A stretch of DNA of 64,000 nucleotides, from the NCBI GenBank assembly GCA_045637205.1, contig JAZTYY010000078.1, forward strand, positions 952 through 64,951, read 5' to 3'. Origin of the DNA: Eubacteriales bacterium. GTDB taxonomy: Bacteria; Bacillota; Clostridia; Oscillospirales; CAG-272. The notes below the pieces were generated by a model. That model made no database searches, was not told the DNA's origin, and was given only the letters and a program-made list of their open reading frames with translations. Of this stretch, positions 4,931-28,235 are shown piece by piece. Made by a program: the position numbers and the translations under genes. Within the stretch, counting starts at the first letter, position 1. Each line of letters begins with the position of its first letter.

Positions 4931-4937
4931 CTTCCTT

Positions 4938-7613: not shown

Positions 7614-7634
7614 TTAAACGTCCTCCCAAAACAA

Positions 7635-11532: not shown

Positions 11533-11669
11533 TTTTTCCACCACAAGAAACATCGACTATAGTGATGTCGATAATTCTTTTGCCTTCTCTCTATTCTTCG
11601 GGAATGTATTACAGTTGATAACCAATATATGCGCCAATCAAGAAGTTCGTTGAATAGCACACAAACACC

Positions 11670-12092: not shown

Positions 12093-12995
12093 TCAAATCT
12101 TCTTAAAGAAATCTACATCAATTTCATATGTAGTAATCGGTTTGACTCCAATCCCATATTCAGCAATCTTATTTATGAATTCTTCTCCATCGATAAGATC
12201 AATTTGCTGCTTGCCAGGATTTGATGCCTCTTCTTTAGCTGCTTTTGAAAAAGAACCTGTAGTAATCATAACACCCTTTTCAATATCGGTCGTCAAGGAT
12301 CCACGAAAATCACGAATTTCGCCTGCTCCAACTAAACCTTTATACCTTTTGCATTGAAAAGCAACGTTAAAACTGAAAATACCGTTAATTCGCAGTTTTC
12401 CTGTTCCATCAATTCCACCGTCTCCAGACTTCTTAGTAACCTCTACCTGAGAAAAACCACATTCTCGAAGCAATCTTTGAGATAATCTTTCAAAGGCATA
12501 TGGATCCATGTTTTGAAGTACTTCTGCTAGTTGTTCTCTCCATGGCTTTGCCTCGTCAGGATATTCCGCATAATCGTTTGTAGGATCATCATCCTCAGGA
12601 ACGTTTCTTGCGACCCACGGAGCGTTTTGGGCTGCCTTATTGCCGGACTTATTTCGATTATTCTGTACTACTGAATCAACAATAACTTTGCTGTCAATTG
12701 TATCAACCGAAACATAATCCGGTCTAATTGTCCAAACGCCTCTAGCACTATTCTCAATTACTCCGTAAAGTCTAAGGTAGGTACGTGCCCAATCTGCTTG
12801 ATAGGATAGCTCAGATTTATTAGTTCGTCCCTTGTGCAAAATATCAACCACTTCATCGGGAATTTTCATGTCCAAAATAATCTGATCCAATATTTCTTCA
12901 TTCTTTCCCGATCCACCAAGCTTCTTTAAAGCAATGAAAGTGGGAAGTATAAGCTGACCATATCTAGGAATTCTTTTATCTATCTTTTGTCTCAT
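12093..12995 (-). CDS. mrr: Mrr-family type IV (modification-dependent) restriction endonuclease
   Basis: N-terminal Mrr_N-like winged helix (ILPTFIALKKLGGSG...). C-terminal Mrr_cat: FERL...LL...GF..V.VT.KSGDGGIDG.G...FQCKRY...VG..EIRDF.G. AGGAG RBS. Confidence 0.85.
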   Translation of the reverse strand: MRQKIDKRIPRYGQLILPTFIALKKLGGSGKNEEILDQIILDMKIPDEVVDILHKGRTNKSELSYQADWARTYLRLYGVIENSARGVWTIRPDYVSVDTIDSKVIVDSVVQNNRNKSGNKAAQNAPWVARNVPEDDDPTNDYAEYPDEAKPWREQLAEVLQNMDPYAFERLSQRLLRECGFSQVEVTKKSGDGGIDGTGKLRINGIFSFNVAFQCKRYKGLVGAGEIRDFRGSLTTDIEKGVMITTGSFSKAAKEEASNPGKQQIDLIDGEEFINKIAEYGIGVKPITTYEIDVDFFKKI

Positions 12996-13107
12996 ACATT
13001 ACTCCTGATTTAATAAAAAGTTATTGTGCAAATTAAACCCAAGTTACTTAAAAGCAAAATCTGTTACTTGAATTTTTATTAAAAGACACAGACCTTTTAT
13101 ATTTTCC

Positions 13108-14082
13108 TTAAAATTGATTATTTTCTCTCAACAACTCACATAGCTGATGTGCTACGTACCAAAACATTACGGGAGGAATTGCATTTCCTAACGCCCTATA
13201 CTGAGCACCTTCTACTCCAACCAACTTAAATGTTTCGGGAAAAGATTGAATCCTCGCAACCTCACGTGGTGTAAATCTTCTGTATCTGCCACCATCTAAC
13301 AATACAGGATCAGTGCTATTCAAAGACACCTTTGCTAAGTGCGAACCAACCGTATTGCAAGGTTTATTCAAGTCTTGAGCTGTGCCCTTGTTCATATCTC
13401 TCTTGGCTGCTCTCATTCCCTGAACTGCTTTTTCGCTAAAGAAGTATTTTTCGTCAACTTGGTTCTCTACCACATCGCCAAGAACAGCATAATCATATTC
13501 CACAAGCACATCCTCGGGAAATTCGTATTTAAATCCGAGATCATTTCGAATTCCAACGATAATTACACGTTCTCTCTTTTGCGGAACTCCAAAGGCAGCA
13601 GCATTGATAAGCTTATGTGTTACCTGATAACCTGATTTTTCAAATTCGCTTATAATAAGCGGAAATGCTTCACCCTTATTTGCCGACAATAATCCTTTAA
13701 CATTTTCTGCTATAAAACACTTCGGCTGCTTTTCTCTCAAAATTCTACACATTTCGAAGAACAGCATTCCACGCTCATCTTTGTATCCAAGTCTTTTAGG
13801 ATTTTGTGCAACAATCGAAAAAGATTGACACGGGAATCCGCCCGTAAGTACATCTATTTCAGGAATCTCTGATGCCGGGACAGTTCTAATATCTCGTCTA
13901 TCCGGAATCACACCAAAATTCTCCTCAAATATACGGCAGGCACTTTCCTCTATATCATTTGCATAAACAATTTCCATTGGATTCTTGGTATAATTATCGC
14001 CAAGAAAATCAAAGCCACCAAGCAATCCAACATCCGTTCCTCCGCAACCGCAGAAGAGCGATGCAACCTTTAAGCTCGCCAT
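13108..14082 (-). CDS. DNA (cytosine-5)-methyltransferase (M2)
   Basis: Motifs LFCGCGG (I), GGFPCQSFS (IV), ENVKGL (VI), QKRERVIIVG (VIII), GNAIPP (X). The ATG overlaps the endonuclease stop by 13 nt. Confidence 0.9.
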   Translation of the reverse strand: MASLKVASLFCGCGGTDVGLLGGFDFLGDNYTKNPMEIVYANDIEESACRIFEENFGVIPDRRDIRTVPASEIPEIDVLTGGFPCQSFSIVAQNPKRLGYKDERGMLFFEMCRILREKQPKCFIAENVKGLLSANKGEAFPLIISEFEKSGYQVTHKLINAAAFGVPQKRERVIIVGIRNDLGFKYEFPEDVLVEYDYAVLGDVVENQVDEKYFFSEKAVQGMRAAKRDMNKGTAQDLNKPCNTVGSHLAKVSLNSTDPVLLDGGRYRRFTPREVARIQSFPETFKLVGVEGAQYRALGNAIPPVMFWYVAHQLCELLRENNQF

Positions 14083-15539
14083 GTTAACAACTCCTCAAAC
14101 GCCCCAACAACCTTGGGATCAAATGTAATATCTGCACCATCTGTCGGAATCATATCGATCATATCCTTTTTATAAAGTCCAACGGGATCTTGCAGTAGGA
14201 ACAACTTTCTTTCGCCTTTGCTTATCATCAAACGATATACATAATAACGATCACGAGTGCTATTCGCAGTATTCCACTCGTTTTTAGTCAAATGAATCTT
14301 GTTGAAATGCAAGGGCTTTGCGCTGATTGTGGTCTTTACTTCAATATAGCGCTTTCTTTCATCAAGCTCAACAGAGCTGATATCATATCCAACTGCAAAT
14401 TGTGTAGGAATACGCTTTATCAGATGGATAAGATCTTCACGACCACCAATTTTGATTCTCATGCACTCATGGCCATGAACAAGATTCTCTCCAATATCAC
14501 CGATGTCCTTGGTAGTGAAATCATCAACGCCTGCTCTTAAGCGTTCGCCTATGATTTCTTCGCTCTTGATCTTTTCTTTTTCTATCGCCTCAGTATCACT
14601 CAATTCCTCTGCTCCGCTCTTCAAAGCGGTGAGCTCTTCGGCATCGGCTGCAATATATGCAAGAATATCCGTAGAGAAATCTGTATCAGACATGTCACGA
14701 TTCACGAAGTTAAACCAGCCGATTTTGCAATCATTTATTGCTTCGAGTGTTCCTGACTTAGCTTTGATCATAACATCATATTGATTGAACCATTCAGTCG
14801 ATTCAACAAATTTTATAATAGCATCTTCTTCAAGAGAATTGAGATAATATGTTCTGCTATCGTACGTAACCAGAAGGTTGGCAATCTCCATGTAATCGAC
14901 GATATCGCCTGCATAGCGAATCACATCGCCTGTCTGATCATATGTTAATCCCAATCTGCGGTTTTCCTTAATTCGATTCCATGTCAAAGCAACATCTTCA
15001 TTATCACGAGTGCATCTCAAATCGTTAAATACGCAATGGCAGATCTCAAATTTTGTTAGACCGATATTCTTTCCTTCTTCTGAACACGCATGCTTCAACA
15101 ATTTGAGAATATACTGTGCCGGTTTGAAATGAATTCCATGCTCAATCTGTTCTAACACAGCATGAGATTTTATATGTGCGCCGGGATATTGGAAGCTATA
15201 GAGATACGCCTTGAAAAACTCGACCAAGTCTTGTTTTTCTGCCAACTCAATAGCACGTCTGCCGGGCTTAGCGGTAGATTCATTTTGCTGAATAAAACCG
15301 AACAGGGAGGAGATTTCCGTTCTCCAGTTATTGATTGTTTTCAGTTCTCTGTGTGCGTTTCCGGGATATCTATAGATCGCAGCATTTATTTTAGAGACAA
15401 ACTCATCAACGGGCAATTCCCCTATTGCGGTCAATTCTTCTGCAAAATATATGAGTACATTTTCAATATCGCCTTTGAATCTAGGGCGGACATGATGTAT
15501 GCGAAAATAATATTCACTTGGAATACTGTATTCACTCAT
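14070..15539 (-). CDS. putative type II restriction endonuclease with a DUF3883-type PD-(D/E)xK C-terminal domain
   Basis: C-terminus GYDISSVELDE.KRYIEVKTT.....F..IHLTKNEW..A.....RYYVYRL is DUF3883-like. The gene is sandwiched between two m5C MTases with gaps of 2 nt or less, or overlaps. Confidence 0.6.
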   Translation of the reverse strand: MSEYSIPSEYYFRIHHVRPRFKGDIENVLIYFAEELTAIGELPVDEFVSKINAAIYRYPGNAHRELKTINNWRTEISSLFGFIQQNESTAKPGRRAIELAEKQDLVEFFKAYLYSFQYPGAHIKSHAVLEQIEHGIHFKPAQYILKLLKHACSEEGKNIGLTKFEICHCVFNDLRCTRDNEDVALTWNRIKENRRLGLTYDQTGDVIRYAGDIVDYMEIANLLVTYDSRTYYLNSLEEDAIIKFVESTEWFNQYDVMIKAKSGTLEAINDCKIGWFNFVNRDMSDTDFSTDILAYIAADAEELTALKSGAEELSDTEAIEKEKIKSEEIIGERLRAGVDDFTTKDIGDIGENLVHGHECMRIKIGGREDLIHLIKRIPTQFAVGYDISSVELDERKRYIEVKTTISAKPLHFNKIHLTKNEWNTANSTRDRYYVYRLMISKGERKLFLLQDPVGLYKKDMIDMIPTDGADITFDPKVVGAFEELLTWRA

Positions 15540-15541
15540 AA

Positions 15542-16591
15542 TTAATCCTCCAATGCTTTTTCAAGCTGTTTTGCGATACATTCTGCCATAAGGGGCGGAA
15601 CCGCATTACCTACTTGTCTAAACTGTTGTGTTTTGTTACCTATGAATACAAAATCATCCGGGAACGACTGTATTCTCGCACATTCTCTTACGGTAGGAAC
15701 GCGATTGTACTTGTAATGGAAATGATGTCTATGTCCTGTGTCAATAGTCGGCGCAGGCTTTTGACTTGCAAATCGAGTCCATGCCACATGGAAGTTACGG
15801 CTGCTTCTATACTCTTCAGGCAAATCACGATAATTTCCACCATCGGGAACAAGAGAGATAATATGCTGTACTTTTTCCGAATGCGTAGCTGCAACATGGT
15901 TGTATACTTTGCGTGATTTCTCTCTCATGGTTTTTTGATATGCATTCTGTGGAGCAAATACATATTCTTGTTCTTCTTCACCCAATTCATCCGTAAGAGA
16001 TGGCAAATCAGAAAGAGCCATTTCGCAAGTCACAACATAATCAAGCGCGTCAGGATAGAAGAATTCGCTCTCGCCATTCTTCATTCCAACAAACACTACT
16101 CTCTTGCGATTTTGAGGCACACCATAATCCGCAGCACAGAGTATCTGATATTTAACCGTATATCCAAGCTCAGTAAAACGCTTGATGATATTATCTTTTA
16201 CTTCTCCGTTAAACAAGCCAACCAATCCCGGAACATTTTCAATAACAAATGCTCTAGGCTTGATTTCTTCTACCAAGCGTATGTAACTCAAATAAAGCTT
16301 GTTTCTCGGATCATTGAAGTTGCGAGGACCAGAAAGAGAAAATCCCTGACAAGGAGGGCCTCCAATAATAACATCAATGGTTTTATCGCCAATTACATTC
16401 TTGATATCAGCGTATCCGATTTCTGTGATATCACCACATATAGACTTTGCGCCATTATGGTTCGCTTCAAAGGTTTCAAGTGCTTTTTTATCATTGTCTA
16501 TTCCAAGGACTATGTTAAAGCCTGCGCGTTCAAATCCACATGACAATCCGCCTGCTCCGCAGAACAAATCTAATACATTATATTTAATCAT
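15542..16591 (-). CDS. DNA (cytosine-5)-methyltransferase (M1)
   Basis: Motifs LFCGAGG (I), GGPPCQGFS (IV), ENVPGL (VI), QNRKRVVFVG (VIII), TVRECARIQSFPD, GNAVPP (X). ATG at 16591 overlaps the HTH gene stop by 8 nt. Confidence 0.9.
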   Translation of the reverse strand: MIKYNVLDLFCGAGGLSCGFERAGFNIVLGIDNDKKALETFEANHNGAKSICGDITEIGYADIKNVIGDKTIDVIIGGPPCQGFSLSGPRNFNDPRNKLYLSYIRLVEEIKPRAFVIENVPGLVGLFNGEVKDNIIKRFTELGYTVKYQILCAADYGVPQNRKRVVFVGMKNGESEFFYPDALDYVVTCEMALSDLPSLTDELGEEEQEYVFAPQNAYQKTMREKSRKVYNHVAATHSEKVQHIISLVPDGGNYRDLPEEYRSSRNFHVAWTRFASQKPAPTIDTGHRHHFHYKYNRVPTVRECARIQSFPDDFVFIGNKTQQFRQVGNAVPPLMAECIAKQLEKALED

Positions 16592-16766
16592 TTTTGCTTT
16601 CCCTCGTCGTTCTTGCATCAATTGGTTTTTCGGCATCTTCCGGGATTACCCATGCATCTCCAAGTTTGAAAACGCCTTTAATTCTTCCTTCGGCACACAA
16701 AATTTGAACTCTTCTCTGCGAAATGTTCCACTTTCGAGCAGCTTGGCTTGCAGTCATGTACTTCAT
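16584..16766 (-). CDS. small HTH_17/excisionase-family DNA-binding protein (controller or Xis-like)
   Basis: MTASQAARKWNISQRRVQILCAEGRIKGVFKLGDAWVIPEDA matches the MerR-superfamily HTH_17 pattern. GGAGGT RBS. First gene behind the promoter. Confidence 0.7.
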   Translation of the reverse strand: MKYMTASQAARKWNISQRRVQILCAEGRIKGVFKLGDAWVIPEDAEKPIDARTTRESKND

Positions 16767-16808
16767 GTTTTACCTCCATTTATTCCACGGGGCGAATAAT
16801 ACAACCCT

Positions 16809-16837
16809 AGTATACCATACATTCTCTTTTTTGACAA
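16809..16837 (-). promoter_or_regulatory. sigma-70-type promoter TTGTCA-17-TATACT (TG-extended) for the HTH/R-M operon
   Basis: Minus strand reads TTGTCAAAAAAGAGAATGTATGGTATACT. A plus-strand TTGACA-17-TATAAA (16831-16859) overlaps it divergently. Confidence 0.6.
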
Positions 16838-16890
16838 GATATAAATTAGTATTTATAAAAAATTTTAGTATTAATGAACATTCATTTCAT

Positions 16891-16932
16891 GTTACGCAAT
16901 CACTCAAGTTTTGTTACGCAGGCCGCTACGCA
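16891..16932 (+). repeat. cluster of three YTACGCA motifs (GTTACGCA 16891, GTTACGCA 16913, GCTACGCA 25 at 16925) with 22-nt and 12-nt spacing
   Basis: Same motif, order, orientation and 22/12 spacing as the cluster at 19342-19383. Lies 54-95 nt upstream of the -35 of the R-M promoter. Confidence 0.6.
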
Positions 16933-16944
16933 TCAAGTCCTGAG

Positions 16945-16988
16945 TTTAAAAAACGTACCGTCGGAATCGGCTAGATTCTCGGCGGTAC
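16945..16988 (-). terminator. imperfect 14-bp hairpin GTACCGCCGAGAATC-loop-GATTCCGACGGTAC followed by GTTTTT (minus strand)
   Basis: Stem at 16955-16968/16974-16988 with one bulge. A T-run is present on the minus strand only. Possible distal terminator of the ATPase gene. Confidence 0.4.
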
Positions 16989-17028
16989 ACTATTAAAAAA
17001 GTTATGCAATTTGTCTAAAAATACACTA

Positions 17029-17074
17029 AAATAAGGTAATACAGCTGGGAGAGCGCTACCTTGGGGTGGTAGAG
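17029..17074 (+). pseudogene. 5' portion of a tRNA-Pro(GGG)-like gene: D-loop and anticodon arm intact, acceptor and D-stem 5' strands decayed
   Basis: CAGCTGGGAGAGC is a canonical D-loop/stem. CTACC-TTGGGGT-GGTAG is an anticodon arm with U33, anticodon GGG and G37. tRNA similarity ends at 17074. Confidence 0.45.
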
Positions 17075-17170
17075 ACCCCAAGTGCAAGAATTGACCAGCT
17101 GCGCCACACCCTTATACTGTTTCCCCGCTGCTTAGAACTTATTTTATCGTGTTTTCGCAACCAATATAAT

Positions 17171-17214
17171 GGGCCTGTTCTTACCTGCTTCGAGGGTTGA
17201 ACAAGCCCGTTTTT
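17171..17214 (+). terminator. plus-strand hairpin GGGCCTGTTC-N18-GAACAAGCCC followed by GTTTTT
   Basis: 10-bp stem with one mismatch at 17171-17180/17199-17208, followed by a T-run. Would stop plus-strand transcripts from the tRNA-like region. Confidence 0.35.
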
Positions 17215-17307
17215 CGCCTTTGACCACATGTTTGACCACTTGCGGAGATTTTTGCTCTATTTACACTTAATAGTACTATTTCGAAGTTCTATATTATAAT
17301 TTAAATA

Positions 17308-19194
17308 TCAAACCTCAATGGGGTCTTTTATTCCACAAATATCCTTAATAACATCAAAGATTTTTGCAAAATTCGAAAAATCAAAGTCTGCTGCATACTC
17401 ATCTTGATCTAAGATCAATTGTGCAAAATCATCCTTAGGCAATGCAACAGAATGTTGCATTTCTGGGTCATCTGCTACCATATAAACCTTTTCATCAATC
17501 ACCCCATTTATTAACACCTTATTTTTAATGCCACTAATACGCGTTTGATACTTTGCGTCCTTACCTATACCCGTTGAGTAGAATTCTTCTCCCAAAAACA
17601 ATCTACGCCCTTGAGAATCAACCTTCAACAAATCATCTTTAGAGTAATAGTGCTCAATAGACGTGTATTTTCCATACACATCTTCATTTACCATTGGAAT
17701 AGAAAATGCATAAATGTTAGGATATAGTTCAATATACTCTACTCCTGAATCTCCAACAGTTTTTTTGCATATTTCTTCATTGTCACGATCAAACATACCG
17801 ATCAACTTTCTGCTGGGAGAAGCAATATTAAACTGTTTCAAAAGTTCCATTAATGTAGTATCGCCCATTGTATCTTCATATTCATAGATATCTATGGGCA
17901 AGTCTAGACCAAGCTTCTTAATTGCTGATTTAAGATGCTTCCAATCACTCTTTCCTTCCGTAATAATGAGAGGTCTTTGAGATTTTTCGGTTTCTGCAAA
18001 TAACAAATTGTATTTTTTTGCAAAACGTTCATTCTCACTCACCATCATATTGTATACTTCTTCGAAAAGATCATTATTGTATGGTGTACACCTTAATCCA
18101 TTGTTGTCCAAATCAAATATCGAATAACATATATCTGCACTTTGCTCAAGTCCCAAATTAAAAAACGGAGAATGCGATGTTACTACAAACTGAACATTAG
18201 GAAACAGCTTCATAAGAGAAGGTAAAACTTCCTTCTGCAGTTTAATATGTAGGTGCTTGTCTATTTCATCTATAAGAACTACTCCCGATACGCTACTGAA
18301 ATCATGCTGAATATTGTCAGCTTGTCTGGTGATTTCTCCAAACAGACTAACTAATGCTAATTCGCCGGAAGACATATTGAATATTGATGGATATAAATGT
18401 CGGCCACTAATTTTTTCAATAATTTGGATTCTTGTAAAACCAGATTGACGCGGACCTATTCCCAGTCTTACTGGCACTTTAACCTTGGATCGTAACAATT
18501 CACTAAAGATCTTGTTTAGATGTTCCCAGTTTCTCTGAGCTCCAGTTTTATACAATTCGCTATCCAAGACTATATCCATAATCCAATTCGCAATATCTGG
18601 CAAATTAGAAGTTACTTCAATCGGGTTAGTCAGATATCCTGTAAATCCCATATCCTTCTTAAATGATAAAGATACCGCATATGGATCATTAAGATAAGAG
18701 GGTTGCTCATATCTATACGCCGGGAAATAAGTCATTAAATTTGACTCAAACAAGTTTCTAATCTTTTCCTTATCAGTTATGGTAAAGTATTTAACAACAG
18801 ATGATTTATCAGACTTATTTTTTAATGTAGCATATGCAATTGGATTTGAAATTTCAACATCTTGATTATAATTACTCTCATCACTTAAGTCACGTATATC
18901 AATATAATCAATATTTTCATTATCATCAACGAACCTCAGATAGACAAACGAATGTTTGGATTTGTCTAATACTGTAATTCCAGAAGATACTCTATAAAAT
19001 TTGTTTTCAATCCCCTCAAACTGAAAAGCAAAACCTTTCTTGGCAAATTCAAAAAAAGCATCTACCACATAAGACATTATAGTTGTTTTACCAGCCCCAT
19101 TTATTCCAGACAGGACTGTAATATTGCTATCAAAATTTAACTTCAAATTTTCGAACGGCGCTCTATTGAATATTTGCATTTCCTGTAACCGCAT
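17308..19194 (-). CDS. ABC/SMC-type ATPase (AAA_15/21-like) fused to a TOPRIM/DUF4435-like domain; fused AriA-AriB (PARIS-like) or class-1 OLD-like defence protein
   Basis: Walker A GINGAGKTT. Walker B and downstream VVLIDEIDKHLH....VVTSHSPFF. C-terminal IITEGKSDW (TOPRIM Glu) and GMFDRDNE (DxD). ATG at 19194 is preceded by GAGGAG. Confidence 0.55.
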   Translation of the reverse strand: MRLQEMQIFNRAPFENLKLNFDSNITVLSGINGAGKTTIMSYVVDAFFEFAKKGFAFQFEGIENKFYRVSSGITVLDKSKHSFVYLRFVDDNENIDYIDIRDLSDESNYNQDVEISNPIAYATLKNKSDKSSVVKYFTITDKEKIRNLFESNLMTYFPAYRYEQPSYLNDPYAVSLSFKKDMGFTGYLTNPIEVTSNLPDIANWIMDIVLDSELYKTGAQRNWEHLNKIFSELLRSKVKVPVRLGIGPRQSGFTRIQIIEKISGRHLYPSIFNMSSGELALVSLFGEITRQADNIQHDFSSVSGVVLIDEIDKHLHIKLQKEVLPSLMKLFPNVQFVVTSHSPFFNLGLEQSADICYSIFDLDNNGLRCTPYNNDLFEEVYNMMVSENERFAKKYNLLFAETEKSQRPLIITEGKSDWKHLKSAIKKLGLDLPIDIYEYEDTMGDTTLMELLKQFNIASPSRKLIGMFDRDNEEICKKTVGDSGVEYIELYPNIYAFSIPMVNEDVYGKYTSIEHYYSKDDLLKVDSQGRRLFLGEEFYSTGIGKDAKYQTRISGIKNKVLINGVIDEKVYMVADDPEMQHSVALPKDDFAQLILDQDEYAADFDFSNFAKIFDVIKDICGIKDPIEV

Positions 19195-19244
19195 GTTATT
19201 TTCTCCTCGTACTGACAATTGTGCTAAATGTGTATTACATGCAT

Positions 19245-19273
19245 ATTATATCACAAAATTCGTCCTTTTTCAA
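19245..19273 (-). promoter_or_regulatory. consensus promoter TTGAAA-17-TATAAT (TG-extended) for the ATPase-TOPRIM gene
   Basis: Minus strand reads TTGAAAAAGGACGAATTTTGTGATATAAT. Confidence 0.6.
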
Positions 19274-19341
19274 CAATATTATGTAAACAAGGCGACGAAT
19301 TTCTACGCCGCCTTATCATATATAATTCCATTGTCTTCCCT

Positions 19342-19383
19342 GCTACGCAATTTGGTTATATTCGCTACGCAGTTTGTTACGCA
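19342..19383 (+). repeat. second cluster of three YTACGCA motifs (19342, 19364, 19376) with 22-nt and 12-nt spacing
   Basis: GCTACGCAATTTGGTTATATTCGCTACGCAGTTTGTTACGCA. Same architecture as 16891-16932. About 127 nt from the 14-bp core repeat, compared with 129 nt on the left. Confidence 0.6.
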
Positions 19384-19509
19384 ATGATGCTTTTAAGTTA
19401 TTTTATGATGCTAAAACGCTATTCACTTCACACAAAAAAACAGGTCAAATAATGAACTTAATGCCTCTACTCGCTGTGAGTAATGACCGAAAGTTTAAAA
19501 ATTGACCAG

Positions 19510-19554
19510 TTGGGGTGGTAGAGGCCGCAGGTTCAAGTCCTGTCACTTAGACCA
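19510..19554 (+). pseudogene. 3' portion of the tRNA-Pro(GGG)-like gene (anticodon loop through CCA)
   Basis: TTGGGGT-GGTAG-AGGCC-GCAGG-TTCAAGT-CCTGT-CACTTAG-A-CCA has a canonical T-arm and an encoded CCA. No matching 5' half lies upstream of it. Confidence 0.6.
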
Positions 19555-19586
19555 ATCGGACGTCCAAATGGGCGTCCGATTTTTCT
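19555..19586 (+). terminator. hairpin ATCGGACGTCC-AAAT-GGGCGTCCGAT followed by TTTTT, immediately after the tRNA 3' end
   Basis: 11-bp stem with one G-U pair at 19555-19580, followed by a T-run at 19581-19585. Confidence 0.65.
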
Positions 19587-19940
19587 TTATTTATCAATAT
19601 TTGATAAGCAACGTATTTGCCTGTGTCAAGAGGCTTGCCGTTTTCGTCGGTATCTCTGATAGTTCTAAAAGCAATCTTTTCCTTGTTGATTCCATCCTTT
19701 TGAGCTTGGTCGGGGGTGCGAGCGGAATTTTTATTGCCATTTTTATTTTGAGTATTGACAAACGCATTTGCTTTGTGTATAATGGTATTAGAGTCAAGAC
19801 GAGTTATAATGTTGGGAAATTGTATCCCAAGGTTCACTGACAACTCTTGACTCTTATTTTTATTCCAATAAATTTCAGTTATATCACGAAATCAACCACA
19901 AATCAACATTATTTTTTAATTGTTTCGTAAAATTACTTGC

Positions 19941-21719: not shown

Positions 21720-24700
21720 CTATCTAGTCCAAGTAGCAGTCCAAGGATTCAAATATGCGCTACTTCCACCGCTTTTGGGTGCTATACTCTCTTCCTCTGA
21801 GTAATATGTTGAAGAAAGTGTTCTTGAAGAAAAATTTCTTTTGCCTTTATCAACCACAGATCCGCCAAAATACTCTGCCCAAGAAGCCCCTGTACCAGAC
21901 CAACTATTCGTTCCCATGACTATGATAGTTTTAACATTGTATAAAGCTTCAGGTTTAATAGTTTTTATGGATTCTGGAACGGTTATTTCTAACATCGTAC
22001 ATCCACAAAAAGTAAAATCTTCTATACATGTTATAGATTCTGGAATTGTTACGCTTGTAAGTGATGTACAATATGCGAATGCCCTCTCTCCAATGCTCGA
22101 TACGGAGTCGGGGATTGTTACACTTGTGAGAGATTTGCATTGATAAAATGCTCTATTGCCAATGCTTGTTACAGGCAAGCCATTATAGATGCTTGGAATA
22201 ATAAGATTGGAATCAGTACAAGTACCAACACCTGTTACTGAATAACTTTCGCCATCGTCATTGAGCGTATATTCAAGACCTTCGGAGGGATAATAAGTAA
22301 CCGTATCATCTTTAGCAATCTCACCGTCGGTGCAATAAATTGTATATTCTTCTGTATTAGTGTCCCAACGTTCGTGAAGCAAAATGGCTTTCCACTGCTC
22401 AACTGTACCTTCAAAATTAATTCTAGTAAGCAAGGTGCAATTACCGAATGTAGAAAAACCAATACTTGTCACTGAGTCTGGTATTACTATACTTGTGAGC
22501 GATGTGCAATCCCCGAATACACGATTACCAATACTCGTTACCGAGTCAGGGATTACTATACTTGTGAGCGATGTGCAATCACGGAATGCATAATCATCAA
22601 TACCCGTCACGGAATTGCCTATCACCACACTTGCGAGTGATGCACAACCCGAGAATGCAGAATGTCCAACACTCGTTACCGAGTCAGGGATTACTATACT
22701 TGCGAGTGATGCACAACCCGAGAATGCAGAAATTCCAATACTCGTTACGGAGTCTGGGATTACTATACTTGTGAGCGATGTGCAACCAGAGAATGCAGAA
22801 TTTCCAATACTCGTTACGGAATCTGGGATTATTATGCCCGCAAGCGATTTACAATATTCGAACGCACCATCACCAATGCTCGTCACGGAATTGCCTATCA
22901 CTACACTTGTGAGCGATGTACAATCGTTGAATGCACCCTTACCAATACTTGTCACAGAGTCAGGTATTGTTACACTTGTGAGCGATTTGCAAAAATAGAA
23001 TGCATACTCGCCAATACTTGTTACAGATTTGCCAATCGTTAAATTTGTGAGCGACTCGCACCAAAAGAATGCAGCCTCGCCAATACTTGCCACAGAGTCG
23101 CCTATAACTGCACTTGTGAGCGACTGGCACCCATAGAATGCATAATTACCAATGCTCGTCACAAAGTCTGGGATTGTTATGCTCTCAATTTTGTTTTCAT
23201 TATAGAAAGCATATTGATAGATACCATACTCTTTGCCGTCTTCATATTCGGGAAGAGTTAATGTAACATCATTGCCTGCATATTTTACAAGATATACATC
23301 TGTACCATCATCGTAGAATATATAGTCTCCAACGTATTTAATATAGGACTCTGACTCATCAGTAATAATATGCTTTGCGTAATAACCAATACGTCCATTA
23401 TCCTCGGAACCTGCAGTGATATTCAATGACGATTTGTCGCAAACTTCAATAAGTGAGTAGCAACCCGAGAATGCAGAATCACCAATACTCGTCACGGAGT
23501 CGGGGATAACTATGCTTGCAAGGGATGAGCAACTGAAGAATGCATCCTCACCAATATCTGTTACAGAATCGGGGATTATTACACTTATAAGAGAATTACA
23601 TCCATAGAATGCAGAATTACCAATACTCGTCACAGAATCAGGAATTACTATACTTGTAAAATCACATCCTGAAAATGCAGAATCACCAATAGTTGTCACA
23701 GAGTTGCCAATTGTTATATCTGTAAGTGCATAACACCTAGAGAATACACGCACGCCAATGCTTGTCACAGAGTCACCTATGACTACAGTTGTGAGCGATT
23801 CGCAACCTTCAAATGCATACTCACCAATACTCGTTACCGAGTCAGGTATTGTTACACTTATAATCGAATGACATTCTCGGAATGCAGAATTACCAATGGT
23901 AATCACAGAATCACCAATCGTTACACTTTCGAGAGAATTGCACCAATAGAACGCAGAATCACCAATGGTAATCACAGAATCACCAATCGTTACACTTTCG
24001 AGAGAATCGCACCCATAGAATGCAGAATCACCAATGGTAATCATAGAATCACCAATCGTTACACTTTCGAGAGAATCGCACCTATAGAACGCAGAATCAC
24101 CAATACTTGTTACAGATTTGCCAATCGTTAAATTTGTGAGCGACTCGCACCAATAGAATGCAGAATCACCAATACTCGTCACAGAGTTGCCTATCGTAAC
24201 GCTTACGAGACTATCACAATCTGAAAATGCGTTATCAGGTATGGATGTTGCTCCATCTTTTATTATAATCGTAGTAAGGTCACCAAGATCATCATAAGCA
24301 TATGGGAGTATTTCTCCTTCGAAAGTTATACTTTCAACATCAGAACCAGAACCATAATAAGTATCAAACGCCGAATCGGCTATAAATTTTGTATCTTTGT
24401 GAACAACACAATGCTCGTCCTTGAAATTATCTAACTTGATCAATGCATAATAAGGGTTGTTTGCATTACCAAGGTAATAAGTATCATAATATTTGTTAAA
24501 CACAAGCGAGTCGCAATCCTTAAACGCATTCTTTCCGATACTTGTTACAAAATCGGGAATCATTACACTAATAATTTTGTAATTACCATAAAATGCATAT
24601 TGATAAATACCATACTCTTTTCCACCCTCATATTCGGGAAGAGTTAATGTAACATCATTGCCTGCATATTTTACAAGATATACATCTGTACCGTCATCGT

Positions 24701-27700
24701 AGAATACATAGTCTCCAACGTATTTAATATAGGATTCTGACTCATCAGTAATTATATGCTTCGCATAATAACCAATATATCCATTATCCTCGGAACCTGC
24801 AACGATATTCAATGACGATTTGTTGCAAACTTCAACAAGTGAGTAGCATTCCCAAAACGCTGAGTCATGAATAGCCTTCACAAACTCAGGGATCGTTATA
24901 TTTGTTATCTTGCTATTATTACGGAATGCACAGTAATAAATTTCATAGTCTTTAAGCTCTTTATGTTCAGGTGAAGTTGCTTCAGTGTCGATACCTTCAT
25001 AATATTCAGGAAGAACTATTTCATTATCATTTCCAGTATATTTTACAAGATATACATCTGTACCATCATCATAGAATATATAGTCACCTACATATTTCAA
25101 ATATGATTCAGATTCATCAGTAATAATATGCTTTGCATAATAACCAATATATCCATTATCCTCGGAACCTGCAGTGATATTCAATGACGATTTGTCGCAA
25201 ATTTCAATAAGTGAGTAGCAACCCGAGAATGCAGAATCACCAATACTCGTCACGGAATTGCCTAATGTTACACTTGTGAGCGATTCACAATCCCAGAATG
25301 CACTCTCACCAACACTTGTCACGGAGTCGGGGATTATTATGCTTGTGAGAGATGTACAACCTTCGAATGCCCCATAACCAATGTATGTTACAGAATTGCC
25401 CATAGTTACATTTGTGAGAGAAATACAATCCCAGAATGCTAAATCACCAATACTTGTCACGGTGTCGGGGATTATCATGCTTGTGAGAGATGTACAATCG
25501 TCGAATGCCAATCCGTCAATAATCGTAACGGGAAGCCTATTGTACATATTCGGAATTACAATATCAGTATCTGTGCAAGTTCCAATTCCAATTACAGAAT
25601 AACTTTTTCCATCACTGTTTAACAAATATTCCAATCCAATAGAACCCGTTGCATACAAAATTCCACCTTCCACCAATACTTCTCCGCACACCGCACAGAG
25701 AGAATGATATTTACCATCTTCGGTTATAGTCGGTTCCAAATCAACAATCCATTCGCCTTCTGTATGTCCAAGTGCAGAAACTACTCGCTGTGCAACGAAA
25801 ACTTCATTACATCTTGAACAATGCTTACCCTGTGTAAGACCTGTCTCTGTACATGTGGGGGCTACCGCATTATCAATCACCGTAGCATGACCGAGAGCTT
25901 TAACTGTAATTTTTTTACGACTAAGTTCTTCGCCACACACTGTACAATATACGACACTATCATATGAACCTGATTCCGTACATGTAGGATCTATGTTGTT
26001 TTCTACAACCACACCGCTACGTGAATGGCCGAGTGCAGAAACAACCTTCTGAGCAACGAGAACTTCGTTACATCTTGAACAATGCTTTCCTTCGGTAAGA
26101 CCTGTTTCTGTACATGTTGGAGCTACTGCACTATCTATTACTTCGACATGTCCAAGTTCAGGAACTACTTCCTGTGCAACAAGAACTTCTCTACATCTTG
26201 AGCAATGCTTACCTTCTGTAAGACCTGTTGCTGTACATGTGGGTGCTACTGCTTTATCTATTACTTCTTTATGTCCAAGCGCTGGAACTACTTCCTGTGC
26301 AACAAGAACTTCGTTACATCTTGAACAGTGCTTACCCTGTGTAAGACCTGTTGCTGTACATGTAGGTGCTACTGCTCTATCTGTTACTTCAACATGACCG
26401 AGGGCAGAAACAACCTTCTGATCAACAAGAACTGCATTACATCTCGAACAATGCTTACCCTGTGTAAGACCTGTTTTTGTACATGTTGGAGATACTGCAC
26501 TATCTATTACTTCGACATGTCCAAGCGCAGGAACAACCTTCTGAGCAACAATGACTTTATTACAAACTGAGCAGCGCTTTCCTTCTGTAAGACCCGTTTC
26601 AGTACATGTGGGTGCTACTGCATTGTCTATTACTTCTGTATGAGGAAGTTTAGAAACGGTTTGCTGCGCTACTGTAACAGTTCCACAAACTGAGCAGTGC
26701 TTACCTTCGGTAAGGCCCGTTGCTGTACATGTGGGAGCTACTGCTTTATCTATTACTTCTGTATGAGGAAGTTTAGAAACGGTTTGTTGTGCAACTGTAA
26801 TAGCACCACAAACGGAGCAGTGCTTACCTTCTGTAAGACCCGTCTTTGTACATGTGGGAGCTACTGCTTTGTCTATTACTTCTGTATGAGGAAGTTTAGA
26901 AACGATTTGCTGCTCGACAAGAACTTCTCCACATCTCGAACAATGCTTACCTTCTGTAAGACCTGTCTTTGTACAAGTAGGTGCTACCGCCTTATCGATG
27001 ACCTCACTATGTCCAAGCGCGGGAATTACCGTCTGTGCAACTGTAACAGTGCCACAAACTGAGCAATGTTTGCCTGCTGTCAATCCAGTATTTGTACATG
27101 TTGCAGCTACCGCTTTATCAGCAACTTGAGTATGTGCCTTCATAGAAACGGTATTCTGCTTAACAGTAACTGTACCACAAACACTACAATGTTTACCTTC
27201 GGTAAGCCCTGTACTTGTACAAGTTGCTTCAACTGCGGGATCAACAACTTCGGTATGTGCTTTCATAGAAACTGTAGTCTGCTTAACGGTAACTGTACCA
27301 CAAACAGAACAATGCTTACCTTCGGTAAGCCCTGTACTTGTACAAGTTGATGCAACCGCGGGATCTGTAACTTCGGTATGTCCAAGAGCAGGAAGCGTTG
27401 TAGCTGAAACCAAAGTTTTACCACAATGTGAACAAGTCTGGCTTTCTGTTTTACCTGCTTTAGTACAGGTGGGGGCAACTGCGGGGTGTGTTACAGGTGT
27501 ATGGTCAGTTTTAGACACACGCTCTTGTCTTACAATAGTTCTATTACAAACCGAGCAATGTGAACCCTCTGTATATCCATATGTTGTACAAGTTGGTTCT
27601 ACCGCAGGATCAATCACTTCGGTATGACCAAGAGCAGGAATAACTTCTTGCTCAACAAAAGTTGTATAACATCTTGAACAATGAGAACCTTCGGTATAAC

Positions 27701-28235
27701 CCTTAGCTGTACATGTGGGCGCTCTAGCAGAGTCAATCACTTCGACATGTCCAAGCGCGGGAATGAGATTGGATTCAACAACAAGTTCATTACAGGTTTT
27801 ACATGATGCAAATTCTGAAAAACCGTCTTCAGTACAAGTTGCAGGTGTTCCCGGATAATACTCTAAAGTGTGTCCAATTTCAGGGATTTTTTCTTGGGGA
27901 ACAAGATCTTCTCCACACGTGGAGCATCTCTTACCTTCGGTAAGACCTTCCACTGTACATGTTGGAGCTATACCTTCAACAACTTCTTCTGTGTGCTGTG
28001 CGGGAAGAACCTCTTGTGAAACAATGATTTCTCCACAAGTAGCACAGTGCTTACCTTCTGTAAGACCTGTTTTAGTACAAGTGGGCACTACTGCTTCATC
28101 AATCACTATAACATGCTCGTGAGCAGGAGGCTCTTGCTTCGTTGTAGTTTGAGTATTATTGCTTTTACATGCACTCAAGATGAGTAAAAACGTTAATACT
28201 ACTACTAGAAATAATAGCTTTAAAAACTTTTTCAT
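21720..28235 (-). CDS. giant cell-surface lipoprotein: about 18 Cys-rich 43-aa repeats followed by BspA-type leucine-rich repeats (LRR_5)
   Basis: [23 protein letters not shown] has a lipobox. Cys-rich repeats read [23 protein letters not shown]...V.Q. There are dozens of 23-aa units [22 protein letters not shown] at 28235 is preferred over the track start. Confidence 0.85.
21960..25720 (-). repeat. coding LRR region (69-bp / 23-aa periodicity) interrupted by three near-identical blocks of about 200-260 bp
   Basis: The block [55 protein letters not shown] occurs three times, at approximately 23200-23465, 24590-24850 and 25010-25215. Confidence 0.7.
23886..24092 (-). repeat. three nearly perfect 69-bp tandem repeats inside the LRR region
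   Basis: The unit AGAATCACCAATGGTAATCACAGAATCACCAATCGTTACACTTTCGAGAGAATCGCACCCATAGAATGC is repeated with only a few substitutions per copy. Confidence 0.8.
25800..28115 (-). repeat. about 18 tandem 129-bp coding repeats (Cys-rich C-x9-11-C-x2-C modules)
   Basis: Periodic [15 protein letters not shown] in the translation. Antisense track ORFs show the same periodicity. Confidence 0.75.

What the first reader, a model, noticed from the sequence alone, without database searches (positions are those of the whole stretch)
17029..19586. tRNA-Pro(GGG)-like gene split by a 2.4-kb recombinase-less cassette; a tyrosine-recombinase-style attP can be reconstructed
Seen:
- 17041-17074 carries a canonical D-loop (CAGCTGGGAGAGC) and anticodon arm (CTACC-TTGGGGT-GGTAG).
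- 19510-19554 carries the anticodon loop, 3' stem, variable loop, T-arm (GCAGG-TTCAAGT-CCTGT), acceptor 3' strand and CCA, followed by a terminator.
- The two pieces share the 14-bp direct repeat TTGGGGTGGTAGAG. Joining them restores most of a cloverleaf.
- Joining the cassette ends gives AATTGACCAG-TTGGGGT-GGTAGAG-ACCCCAA-N7-AATTGACCAG. This is two 7-bp inverted half-sites around a 7-bp spacer, flanked by 10-bp direct repeats. That is the classic core layout of tyrosine-recombinase sites.
- No integrase lies in the cassette or the window, apart from a small serine recombinase 13 kb away.
- The acceptor and D-stem 5' strands (about 17029-17040) no longer pair, so the tRNA is probably dead.

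Inference: this is a defence-gene cassette mobilised in trans into a tRNA anticodon-loop site.
Basis: partly seen in the sequence, partly recalled or inferred. Interest (0 to 1): 0.65.

Follow-up and report, generated by a model that had tools for sequence, protein, structure and literature searches.

The report
Integrase-less defence cassette in tRNA-Pro site
A 2.4-kb one-gene anti-phage-type cassette with no recombinase of its own sits in the anticodon-loop attachment site of a dead tRNA-Pro(GGG) copy; it belongs to an apparently undescribed family of gut-Clostridia elements but to a well-known kind of mobile element.

Summary
Window 17042-17074 and 19510-19554 match positions 13-45 and 32-76 of a genuine tRNA-Pro(GGG) that is intact in 34 related Clostridia genomes. 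The two pieces share a 14-bp repeat found nowhere else in the window.

A related genome (L026) carries the same 5'-truncated tRNA copy, uninterrupted. This is an empty site.

The 2.4 kb in between is an integrase-less integrative cassette. It has a left arm, one cargo gene with its own promoter, and a right arm.
- **Left arm:** a decayed tRNA 3' half plus a ~95-nt module that is very abundant in gut metagenomes.
- **Cargo:** a PtuA-like ATPase fused to a Toprim domain.
- **Right arm:** a hairpin, three GYTACGCA repeats and a second decayed tRNA copy.

Two relatives show where it comes from. L081 has the same cassette in tandem with a second cassette. L082 has the homologous module and cargo next to an intact tRNA-Pro(GGG) and two adjacent tyrosine-recombinase genes.

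In at least 8 other loci, partial tRNA copies start at the same base, TTGGGGT.

Verdict: a CIME-like (cis-mobilizable element) cassette in a tandem array at a tRNA integration hotspot. Mobilisation in trans is inferred, not shown. It is a new member of a known kind, of moderate interest.

The parts
16891..16932 (+). T1: three GYTACGCA direct repeats (starts 16891, 16913, 16925; spacing 22 and 12 nt) upstream of the truncated tRNA copy
   Evidence: 8 matches in the window against 2.4 expected, 6 of them in two clusters with identical spacing. The same triple with the same spacing occurs in L001, L002, L011, L026 and L034, with partial copies in L020 and L023. The T1 region is homologous in L026 and L081.
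16933..17041 (+). Spacer between T1 and the tRNA piece. It holds a hairpin (16955-16988) and a 19-nt patch that replaces the tRNA's first 12 nt.
   Evidence: 90% identical to L026 7830-7959. Aligned with L026 and L081 in A2, where L081 has the full 5' end CTGGGTGTGGCG at this position.
17042..17074 (+). tRNA-Pro(GGG) positions 13-45: D-loop, D-stem 3' strand, anticodon arm
   Evidence: Exact 33-mer present in 37 genome loci, 34 of them with an ARAGORN-called intact tRNA-Pro(GGG).
17061..17074 (+). Left copy of the 14-bp core TTGGGGTGGTAGAG (anticodon loop plus 3' anticodon stem)
   Evidence: only two copies in the window.
17075..17146 (+). psi-a: a decayed tRNA 3' half (ACCCCAAGTGCAAGAATTGACCAG). 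It is followed at 17097-17112 by a 16-nt inverted complement of the 5' end of a tRNA-Pro variant (GGGTGTGGCGCAGCTG), then a spacer.
   Evidence: Alignment A1. A near-identical segment in L081 lies in front of a different cargo, and a homologue is present in L075. The hairpin potential was folded.
17147..17262 (+). Module M (left arm): terminator-like hairpin 17171-17208 with a T-run, then two TTGACCAC repeats (17220, 17232), ending in CGGAGATTTTTG. The cargo slot begins after about 17255-17262.
   Evidence: Contig word depth is 500-5000 here against 4-22 in the cargo, in four gut metagenomes. 38 metagenome loci hold it, directly downstream of full or partial tRNA-Pro(GGG) copies and upstream of variable genes. 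Also in L035 and L082. Terminator scan. TTGACCAS clustering.
17308..19194 (-). Cargo gene: a 628-aa PtuA-like ABC-type ATPase (about residues 1-373) fused to a Toprim-type C-terminal domain (about 381-628)
   Evidence: Pfam AAA_21, AAA_15 and AAA_23. PADLOC PtuA 5e-32 and RT-Toprim_I-C 1e-20 on residues 381-628. NCBIfam PtuA and retron Ec67 fusion, both below cut-off. PDB PtuA, retron Ec78/Ec83 ATPases and AriA. More than 1700 homologues.
19244..19316 (-). H: conserved block holding the cargo promoter (-35 TTGAAA at 19273, TG-extended -10 TATAAT ending at 19245) and a hairpin at about 19289-19314
   Evidence: The promoter scores 11 of 12. H homologues lie upstream of different cargo genes in L047, L062, L064, L072, L074, L081 (twice) and L082.
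19342..19383 (+). T2: second set of three GYTACGCA repeats (19342, 19364, 19376; same 22 and 12 spacing)
   Evidence: Window 19341-19509 matches L026 at 70-72%. Also present in L081.
19462..19509 (+). psi-b: decayed copy of tRNA positions ~22-72, ending in AATTGACCAG and abutting the right core
   Evidence: Alignment A1. A 43-nt stretch ending in TTGGGGTGG is identical in L026. The repeat family D1, 17069-17101 against 19480-19512, is 76% identical.
19510..19554 (+). tRNA-Pro(GGG) positions 32-76, including the right copy of the 14-bp core (19510-19523), variable loop, T arm, acceptor 3' strand and CCA
   Evidence: 100% identical to the intact tRNA in 7 loci. It is the only match in the window.
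19554..19591 (+). Terminator of the tRNA gene. The flank leading to the PFK gene follows.
   Evidence: 12 pairs, 7 of them G-C, with a T-run. The flank is 83-84% similar to L019, L025 and L030.

Best explanation
Window 17075-19509, plus one copy of the 14-bp core, is a non-autonomous integrative cassette of the CIME kind (a cis-mobilizable element: att sites kept, integrase lost). It belongs to a family of elements in ruminant- and gut-associated Clostridia that integrate at the anticodon loop of tRNA-Pro(GGG).

**Anatomy**
- Left arm: a decayed tRNA 3' half plus module M (a terminator hairpin and two TTGACCAC repeats).
- Cargo: one defence-type gene (PtuA-like ATPase fused to Toprim), driven by a conserved promoter block H.
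- Right arm: three GYTACGCA repeats plus a decayed tRNA copy ending in TTGACCAG.

**Proposed mechanism (inferred)**
A tyrosine recombinase, or a pair of them, supplied by a related autonomous element recombines a circular cassette with the tRNA-derived site. L082 is such an element: intact tRNA, M, the homologous cargo, H, then two integrase genes. The cassette's attP is right arm-TTGGGGTGGTAGAG-left arm. Strand exchange falls at or just 3' of TTGGGGT. The result is the 14-bp direct repeat.

Here the recipient was not the working tRNA gene. It was a copy that already lacked its first 12 nt, as L026 shows. The cassette's own tRNA 3' half is decayed, so no functional tRNA is restored or needed.

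**Shown**
- The identity of the tRNA pieces and the exact repeat.
- The empty site in L026.
- The same cassette in a tandem array in L081.
- An integrase-linked homologue in L082.
- The shared boundary of partial tRNA copies at TTGGGGT.

**Inferred**
- Which recombinase acts on it.
- Which arm repeats that recombinase binds.
- Whether the cassette still moves.
For: 1. The pieces are exact parts of a real tRNA-Pro(GGG) that is intact in 34 of 37 related loci.
2. The 14-bp repeat is unique to the two junctions.
3. L026 has the same upstream flank (90% over 170 nt) and the same 5'-truncated tRNA running straight through GGTAGAG-GCCGCAGG. This is an empty site.
4. L081 carries the cargo at 85% aa identity with the same H-T-psi right arm. 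At its right core, however, it is joined to psi-a, M and a different cargo followed by another H. That is a tandem array of cassettes with shared arms.
5. L082 reads intact tRNA-Pro(GGG), terminator, M, cargo (78% aa), H, then two Phage_integrase genes and an HTH_17 gene. Nucleotide homology to the window covers 17148-19312.
6. Partial tRNA copies start exactly at TTGGGGT in L021 (inside a 2.9-kb element with a 317-aa integrase) and in L042, L048, L051, L055, L062, L064 and L065. L064 has integrase pairs on both sides.
7. M and H flank different, mostly defence-like genes in dozens of contigs. M is 20-200 times deeper than the cargo in four metagenomes, and contigs break at M and H.
8. Four of the six TTGACCAS sites in 64 kb lie in the cassette arms, all in one orientation. 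The GYTACGCA triples keep identical spacing.
9. The window has no tyrosine recombinase.
10. The CIME and tandem-accretion model is established for tRNA-integrating elements (PMC5704250). Serial integration with partial tRNAs is also described for tycheposons (bioRxiv 10.1101/2020.12.28.424599).
Against: - No circular or excised form, and no empty site in the same species, could be examined. All the public runs found are assembled contigs and none holds the whole locus.
- The right end of the autonomous relative L082 lies beyond its contig. It is therefore not shown that the window's right arm (T2-S-psi-b) belongs to an integrase-bearing element.
- Integrase-bearing elements whose right arms are visible (L021, L064) have right arms with different sequences.
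- The identity with the tRNA is only 14 bp, and the arm next to it is decayed, so the site could be a fossil.
- L081 links the cargo to a different left arm that lacks M. Some reshuffling therefore happens at places other than the core.
- The exact crossover position and the proteins that bind the arm repeats are untested.
Confidence: 0.72

Rival explanations
1. Fossil in place. An L082-type element with its own integrases integrated here, then lost its integrase genes and the rest of its body by internal deletion. The cassette has never moved as an integrase-less unit and is now immobile. The differences from L026 and L081 come from separate integrations and deletions in each lineage.
For: - L082 shows the autonomous arrangement, with homology that ends at 19312, exactly where the integrase genes begin.
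- The flanking tRNA-like sequences are decayed.
- Only 14 bp of identity remain.
- The tRNA copy is dead.
- Decay of integrated elements to CIMEs is the usual route (PMC5704250).
Against: - L081 has the same integrase-less cassette with the same right arm, and a further cassette with the same arm types beside it. This points to a propagating unit rather than a one-off deletion.
- The 5'-truncated recipient allele exists with the cassette (window) and without it (L026). The cassette also exists with a full tRNA 5' half (L081).
- The arm motifs are conserved well above the surrounding sequence.
Confidence: 0.2
2. Cargo exchange by homologous recombination. The conserved blocks (the tRNA copies, M, H and the GYTACGCA region) act only as homology arms of a defence hotspot. 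Genes are swapped between them by general recombination after DNA uptake. No site-specific recombination acts on this cassette.
For: - M and H flank many different genes.
- The cargo gene is also found in unrelated backbones: L077-L080 and L083-L085.
- L081 pairs the cargo with another left arm.
- Some metagenome contigs join M directly to H, though the overlaps are only 20-27 nt.
Against: - This does not explain the exact 14-bp direct repeat at the cassette ends.
- It does not explain why partial tRNA copies in at least 8 loci begin at the same base next to integrases.
- It does not explain the precise empty site in L026.
- It may well account for turnover of the cargo inside the M-H slot. 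In that role it complements the main explanation rather than replacing it.
Confidence: 0.06
3. A functional split or intron-containing tRNA gene, or a chance resemblance to a tRNA.
For: The two pieces together carry positions 13-76 of a tRNA.
Against: - The first 12 nt are missing, so there is no acceptor or D stem.
- The intervening 2.4 kb carries an opposite-strand gene with its own promoter and terminators.
- No Rfam intron or RNA family matches.
- Chance is excluded by the exact 33-nt and 45-nt identities to a tRNA conserved in 37 loci.
Confidence: 0.01

Closest known systems
CIMEs (cis-mobilizable elements) and tandem accretion at tRNA genes, as in the ICESt1/ICESt3 family and the Streptococcus agalactiae tRNA-Lys islands
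   Same: The element is flanked by attL and attR, derives from an integrative element, lacks integration genes and sits in tandem with other elements at the 3' part of a tRNA gene. Movement would need a related element's integrase. This matches the definition in PMC5704250.
   Different: - It is very small (2.4 kb) with a single cargo gene.
- No conjugation-related relative was seen; the autonomous relative L082 shows only two integrases plus small HTH genes within the 9 kb available.
- The arms are shared by several cassettes with different cargo (L081).
- The element's tRNA 3' half is decayed, so integration would not restore the tRNA.
- Cis-mobilisation is untested.
Tyrosine-integrase genomic islands and prophages that target the anticodon loop of tRNA genes. 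The sublocation classes come from Williams 2002, Nucleic Acids Res, cited from my own knowledge and not read here.
   Same: The direct repeat begins in the anticodon loop, whose stem gives a natural dyad (CTACC/GGTAG around TTGGGGT). Partial tRNA copies run from the loop to the 3' end in relatives that carry integrases (L021, L064).
   Different: There is no integrase in the cassette or in the 64-kb window. The identity is only 14 bp instead of extending to the tRNA 3' end.
Tycheposons of Prochlorococcus (bioRxiv 10.1101/2020.12.28.424599)
   Same: tRNA-targeting elements whose serial integration at one site pushes older elements inward. Full and partial tRNAs and degenerate remnants accumulate in an island.
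   Different: The host phylum is different. No relation between the recombinases was tested. Tycheposons are defined by their own integrases, and this cassette has none.
Integron gene cassettes
   Same: An array of small, mostly single-gene units separated by conserved recombination sequences, acted on by a tyrosine recombinase encoded elsewhere. The junctions can form strong hairpins.
   Different: - No IntI, attI or Pc platform.
- The sites are tRNA-derived and about 470 bp when both arms are counted, not 60-140-nt attC palindromes.
- The cassette brings its own promoter.
- Integrase hits to the integron-integrase models are far below cut-off.
Septu PtuA, retron Ec78/Ec83 ATPases, the retron type I-C RT-Toprim and OLD-type ATPase-Toprim nucleases (for the cargo only)
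   Same: The N-terminal ABC-type ATPase matches PtuA models and structures. The C-terminal 250 aa match the Toprim part of the retron Ec67-type RT-Toprim. L035 has an RT-Toprim-like gene (truncated at its N-terminus as read) in the same slot.
   Different: There is no PtuB HNH partner, no reverse transcriptase and no ncRNA. All curated cut-offs are missed (100 bits against a cut-off of 500 for PtuA). The ATPase-Toprim order recalls OLD nucleases, but no OLD model was hit.

Membership tests
Functional tRNA-Pro gene | A complete cloverleaf with acceptor and D stems, detectable by tRNA finders | tested here: not met
   ARAGORN finds 0 genes and Rfam 0 hits in the window. The joined pieces are called only at a lowered threshold. 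Positions 1-12 are replaced.
Functional tRNA-Pro gene | Sequence identity to a bona fide tRNA of related organisms | tested here: met
   Positions 13-45 and 32-76 are identical to the tRNA-Pro(GGG) of related MAGs.
Site-specifically integrated element at a tRNA gene (tyrosine-recombinase type) | Direct repeats derived from the tRNA at both ends | tested here: met
   The 14-bp TTGGGGTGGTAGAG is found at 17061 and 19510 only.
Site-specifically integrated element at a tRNA gene (tyrosine-recombinase type) | A precise empty site in a relative | tested here: met
   L026 has the same flank and an uninterrupted truncated tRNA. It is a different species-level MAG. Only 8 nt beyond the repeat are visible before the stored block ends.
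Site-specifically integrated element at a tRNA gene (tyrosine-recombinase type) | An integrase encoded in the element | tested here: not met
   The only ORF over 100 aa is the ATPase-Toprim gene. No integrase homologue is present in the window.
Site-specifically integrated element at a tRNA gene (tyrosine-recombinase type) | The element restores the displaced tRNA 3' part | tested here: not met
   The sequence after the left core is a decayed copy, ACCCCAAGTGCAAGAATTGACCAG.
CIME (cis-mobilizable element; definition in PMC5704250) | Retains attL and attR but lacks integration and transfer genes | tested here: met
   Definition read.
CIME (cis-mobilizable element; definition in PMC5704250) | Derived by decay from an ICE or IME | tested here: inconclusive
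   A homologue with two integrases exists (L082). No conjugation or mobilisation genes were seen in the 9 kb available, and its right end is off the contig.
CIME (cis-mobilizable element; definition in PMC5704250) | Excises or transfers with the help of a related element's integrase | not testable with these tools
   Only assembled contigs were available, with no run holding the whole locus.
Integron cassette | An IntI/attI/Pc platform and attC sites; promoterless cassettes | tested here: not met
   No IntI in the window. Relatives' integrases score 26-56 bits against cut-offs of 265-435. The cassette has its own 11/12 promoter. The sites are tRNA-derived.
Septu (PtuAB) defence system | A PtuA ATPase together with a PtuB HNH nuclease | tested here: not met
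   PtuA-like domain only (PADLOC 5e-32; NCBIfam 100 bits against a cut-off of 500). No second gene is present; a Toprim domain is fused instead.

The most novel reading that the evidence does not exclude
The tRNA-Pro(GGG) locus of these gut Clostridia may work as an integron-like platform. It would be an array of small, promoter-equipped, mostly single-gene defence cassettes that share about 470 bp of split, tRNA-derived att arms (psi-a plus M on one side, H, T and psi-b on the other).

The cassettes would be shuffled in trans by a tandem pair of tyrosine recombinases carried by only some elements. The long hairpins formed at the junctions would be part of the recombination or expression control. 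The left arm carries a 13-16-nt inverted complement of the tRNA 5' end.
Probability: 0.2. Interest if true: 0.7.

Novelty: new member of a known kind. Interest (0 to 1): 0.42.

Why it matters
The finding gives a concrete, testable example of how single defence genes travel in uncultured gut Clostridia. They move as minimal cassettes that keep only attachment arms and borrow an integrase.

It defines reusable sequence landmarks: the TTGGGGT boundary, module M, promoter block H and the GYTACGCA triple. These mark a variable slot holding many different candidate anti-phage genes in ruminant and human gut metagenomes. The landmarks could be used to mine new defence genes. They could also be used to test whether paired tyrosine recombinases service integrase-less cassettes.

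For annotation, it explains why no tRNA is called here and why the tRNA-like fragments are att remnants rather than a decaying gene.

Tried and rejected
- **Same-species contexts via the flanking PFK gene.** Exact-protein look-ups with two start codons found nothing on record.
- **Rfam.** The gathering threshold on the window and E<=10 on 16700-19800 gave no tRNA, intron or other RNA family, only three chance-level hits. On 10 related loci Rfam found only the tRNA. Neither module M nor the ~185-nt units downstream of the tRNA in L010, L037, L014, L016 and L011 belongs to a known family.
- **Other copies in the window.** A search for further copies of the arms or of the tRNA 5' end found none.
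- **Right-arm 34-mer** (GACCGAAAGTTTAAAAATTGACCAGTTGGGGTGG): no hit in metagenome contigs or in IMG/VR.
- **Module M 24-mer in IMG/VR:** no hit, so there is no sign that the family is phage-borne.
- **GYTACGCA pair in IMG/VR:** one hit inside a phage coding region, judged to be chance.
- **Is the 60-aa HTH_17 protein at 16584-16766 the excisionase of an L082-type element?** No similarity to the L082 HTH_17 protein. Its N-terminus resembles HTH_17 N-termini of ~295-299-aa proteins in L019 and L042 (in L042 next to a large gene cluster). It is more likely a truncated gene of that kind.
- **Other cargo homologues** (L077-L080, L083-L085) share only the coding region and sit in unrelated backbones, one next to a tRNA-Cys and another integrase.
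- **GC content** of the cassette is 33-36% against 38-42% nearby. This is suggestive only.
- **An inversion model** for the head-to-head tRNA 5' sequences was considered. It was set aside because the cassette ends are direct repeats and the inverted 13-16-mer recurs inside the left arm of relatives.
- **CtsR-operator reading** of GGTCAAA-N5-GGTCAAA in module M was considered, from my own knowledge of the consensus, and rejected. The spacing is 5 nt, not 3.

Full report
**1.

Window 17042-17074 is CAGCTGGGAGAGCGCTACCTTGGGGTGGTAGAG. Window 19510-19554 is TTGGGGTGGTAGAGGCCGCAGGTTCAAGTCCTGTCACTTAGACCA, followed by a 12-pair terminator.

The shared 14-mer occurs only at these two places in 64 kb, even with 2 mismatches allowed. 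ARAGORN and Rfam find no tRNA anywhere in the window. The joined sequence is called tRNA-Pro(GGG) only at a lowered ARAGORN threshold.

**2. The pieces come from a real tRNA**

The left 33-mer was scanned against one genome per species. It returned 37 loci, all Clostridia, Eubacteriales or Oscillospiraceae MAGs, most of them from ruminant guts.

In 34 loci ARAGORN calls a complete tRNA-Pro(GGG). Rfam scores it at 60-61 bits in the eight loci where it was listed. Its sequence is CTAGGTGTAGCT + the left piece + GCCGCAGGTTCAAGTCCTGTCACTTAGACCA. Two more loci are cut by the end of the stored block.

The window's right piece is 100% identical to the tRNA in 7 loci. The only defect of the joined sequence is therefore that tRNA positions 1-12 are replaced by unrelated AT-rich sequence (alignment A2).

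**3. An empty site exists**

L026 (JAZRFY010000018.1) is the one other locus with the 5'-truncated form. Its upstream 130 nt are 90% identical to window 16911-17041. The tRNA part runs uninterrupted through ...GGTAGAG-GCCGCAGG.

The same MAG has an intact tRNA-Pro(GGG) on another contig (L024). The recipient of the cassette was thus already a dead, extra copy, and the 2.4 kb is an insertion relative to L026. One caveat: the stored block of L026 ends 8 nt after the repeat.

**4. Anatomy of the insert**

From left to right:
- **psi-a (17075-17146).** A decayed tRNA 3' half. It ends in a 16-nt inverted complement of the 5' end of a tRNA-Pro variant (GGGTGTGGCGCAGCTG).
- **Module M (about 17147-17262).** A terminator-like hairpin followed by TTGACCAC twice.
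- **Cargo gene (17308-19194, minus strand).**
- **Block H (19244-19316).** An 11/12 TG-extended promoter facing the gene, plus a hairpin.
- **T2 (19342-19383).** Three GYTACGCA repeats. Their 22 and 12 spacing is the same as in a second triple, T1 (16891-16932), upstream of the left tRNA piece.
- **psi-b (19462-19509).** A second decayed copy of tRNA positions ~22-72, ending in AATTGACCAG and abutting the right core.

The 10-bp repeats AATTGACCAG occupy the place of GTCCTGTCAC (T stem and acceptor). The inverted half-site ACCCCAA occupies the place of GCCGCAA (variable loop and T stem).

The homologous decayed tRNA copies in relatives differ at these positions: ACCACAA or ACCGCAA, and TTTTGACACG or AGTTGACCAC, in L081 and L062. 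The 'classic core layout' is therefore two tandem decayed tRNA copies around the live 14-mer, not demonstrated half-sites. The natural dyad at this site is the anticodon stem (CTACC/GGTAG) around the 7-nt loop.

**5. The cargo**

The 628-aa protein has a PtuA-like ABC ATPase in its N-terminal part:
- Pfam AAA_21, AAA_15 and AAA_23.
- PADLOC PtuA at 5e-32.
- NCBIfam PtuA at 100 bits against a cut-off of 500.
- PDB hits to PtuA, the retron Ec78/Ec83 ATPases and, weakly, AriA.

Its C-terminal 250 aa match the Toprim part of the retron type I-C/Ec67 RT-Toprim proteins (PADLOC 1e-20).

There is no PtuB, reverse transcriptase or second gene. It is a plausible single-gene defence protein of the ATPase-Toprim type, but it is not a member of a characterised system. 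It has more than 1700 homologues, mostly about 625 aa, from gut Firmicutes.

**6. The family**

*Abundance of module M.* Laying contigs of four gut and bovine-gut metagenomes on the region gives word depths of 500-5000 on the tRNA parts and on 17168-17263. The depth is only 4-22 on the cargo. Contigs break at M and H.

*Where M sits.* A 24-mer of M found 38 metagenome contigs. In these, M lies directly downstream of one of two things, separated only by a terminator:
- a full tRNA-Pro(GGG) (L046, L056, L060; also L047 by ARAGORN);
- a partial copy that begins exactly at TTGGGGT (L042, L048, L051, L055, L062, L064, L065).

*What follows M.* M is followed by different minus-strand genes. Among them are an AbiH-like N-terminal motif (by eye), a 1310-aa protein and an RT-Toprim-like gene in L035. 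H recurs upstream of these different genes. M and H thus frame a variable cargo slot.

**7. Relatives that link the cassette to recombinases**

- **L021.** A 2.9-kb element reading intact tRNA, a 317-aa tyrosine integrase, two more ORFs, then a partial tRNA copy starting at TTGGGGT.
- **L064.** Pairs of tyrosine-recombinase genes on both sides of a partial tRNA, M, cargo and H unit.
- **L076/L082 (JAZMVC010000004.1).** Reads intact tRNA-Pro(GGG), terminator, M, a 78%-identical cargo, H, a 482-aa and a 399-aa Phage_integrase protein, then small HTH genes. Nucleotide homology to the window covers 17148-19312 and stops where the integrase genes begin.
- **L081.** Carries the 85%-identical cargo with the same H, T and psi right arm and a T1-type left flank. 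It differs from the window in two ways. It has a full tRNA 5' half. At its right core (TTGGGGTAGTAGAG) it continues into psi-a, M, a different 370-aa gene and another H. This is a tandem array of cassettes with shared arms.

The truncated recipient allele occurs with the cassette (window) and without it (L026). The cassette occurs with truncated and with full 5' halves. That pattern fits movement at the core better than a single ancestral arrangement.

**8. No recombinase here**

Four integrase seeds from the related loci find nothing among the window ORFs of 60 aa or more, even at E<=10. Pfam on most of the large ORFs shows restriction-modification and other defence genes on the left. On the right it shows housekeeping and carbohydrate genes. 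The only recombinase is a 232-aa protein with a resolvase N-terminal domain at 4022-4720.

**9. Interpretation**

The best reading is a CIME-like, integrase-less cassette of a tRNA-Pro(GGG) anticodon-loop-specific element family. It lies in a tandem (accretion) arrangement next to a restriction-modification island. It would be mobilisable only by a related element's tyrosine recombinase or recombinases.

This matches the definitions and three-step model reviewed in PMC5704250. It also resembles the serial integrations with partial tRNAs described for tycheposons.

What remains inferred:
- the acting integrase;
- the roles of the TTGACCA(C/G) repeats, four of six window sites being in the arms, and of the GYTACGCA triples as protein-binding arm sites;
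- whether the cassette is still mobile.

The main rival is a fossil produced in place by deletion. General recombination between M and H probably contributes to cargo turnover, but it does not explain the core repeat.

**10. Unexplained features**

- *Inverted complement of the tRNA 5' end.* The left arm's 13-16-nt inverted complement makes the L081 junction fold into a 14-17-bp hairpin (z = -7.0). The window junction would reach z = -8.8 if its 5' end were intact; as it stands it is -3.3. Its role is unknown. It could block read-through from the tRNA promoter into the antisense of the cargo, act as a folded recombination substrate, or be a relic.
- *The GYTACGCA triple.* It lies in left-arm-like positions in some loci (after the tRNA 3' end and terminator in L001, L002, L011, L020, L034, L050). 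In others it lies in right-arm-like positions (window, L026, L081).

**11. Novelty and score**

The kind is known: tRNA-targeting integrative elements, CIMEs and accretion arrays. I found no description of this particular family. Its features are:
- the tRNA-Pro(GGG) anticodon loop as target;
- the M/H cargo slot;
- paired tyrosine recombinases in some members;
- single-gene defence cassettes in uncultured gut Clostridia.

My literature check was limited to two searches. A specialist would find the result tidy and useful for mining defence genes, but not surprising. Interest: 0.42.

Noticed in passing
window 17168-17263 (module M); L038-L075: A ~95-nt block (hairpin GGGCYTGTTC...GAACAAGCCC, a T-run, then TTTGACCACATGTTTGACCAC) reaches a contig depth of up to about 5000 in gut metagenomes, against 22 for the neighbouring gene. 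It matches no Rfam family. It also occurs away from tRNA-Pro(GGG): in L052 it lies upstream of a tRNA-Pro(TGG) promoter, next to an integrase pair.
   Followed up: partly
window 16891-16932 and 19342-19383; L001, L002, L011, L020, L023, L026, L034, L050, L081: Three GYTACGCA direct repeats with a fixed 22 and 12 nt spacing recur near tRNA-Pro att sites in many loci, on either side of the cargo. The binding protein is unknown.
   Followed up: partly
window 17097-17112; L081 (reverse strand) 385-403: A 13-16-nt perfect inverted complement of the tRNA-Pro 5' end (GGGTGTGGCGCAG) lies inside the cassette's left arm. With a full 5' half it closes a very stable hairpin (z = -7 to -8.8).
   Followed up: partly
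L010, L037, L014, L016, L011 (about 100-260 nt downstream of the tRNA); L026 7715-7806: Units of about 185 nt follow the intact tRNA, once or twice in tandem. Each ends in a partial tRNA copy and holds a hairpin, CCCTGCGC-GAAA-GCGCAGAGGG. L016 shows a compensatory change in that hairpin (CTGTGC/GCACAG). They may be cargo-less att remnants or a small structured RNA. They match no Rfam family.
   Followed up: partly
window 5862-11553: A three-gene block lies between the TipAS and NUDIX genes, which are adjacent in relative L024. It comprises a 583-aa protein with no family, an 841-aa protein with an N-terminal HATPase_c_3/BbrUII-like region and a C-terminal histidine-kinase-type ATPase, and a 466-aa type II-like methyltransferase. 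It looks like an inserted, unusual restriction-modification or defence module.
   Followed up: no
window 12093-16766: An Mrr-type restriction enzyme is followed by a BpuJI-like endonuclease flanked by two C5-cytosine methyltransferases. A 60-aa HTH_17 ORF follows; it overlaps the methylase start and looks like the N-terminal remnant of a longer HTH_17 protein of the kind seen in L019 and L042.
   Followed up: partly
window 4022-4720: A 232-aa protein has only a resolvase N-terminal domain (residues 2-99) and no recognisable DNA-binding C-terminus. It is the only recombinase in the window. No link to the cassette was found.
   Followed up: partly
window 21720-28292: A 2190-aa predicted surface protein has about 20 Cys-rich ~33-aa repeats (…TCT..G.TEGKHCS.CG…) followed by many leucine-rich-repeat-like units.
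   Followed up: no
L035 3758-4939 (reverse strand of the stored locus): A retron Ec67-like RT-Toprim gene, truncated at its N-terminus as read, occupies the same slot after module M. It shares the PLIITEGK(S/T)D Toprim motif with the window's cargo.
   Followed up: partly
window:15000-21500 laid on runs X2 and X3: A few metagenome contigs join M directly to H (17246/17255 to 19244/19245) or M directly to the core (17241 to 19510). These may be cargo-less versions of the cassette. The overlaps are only 20-27 nt, so they could be assembly artefacts.
   Followed up: no
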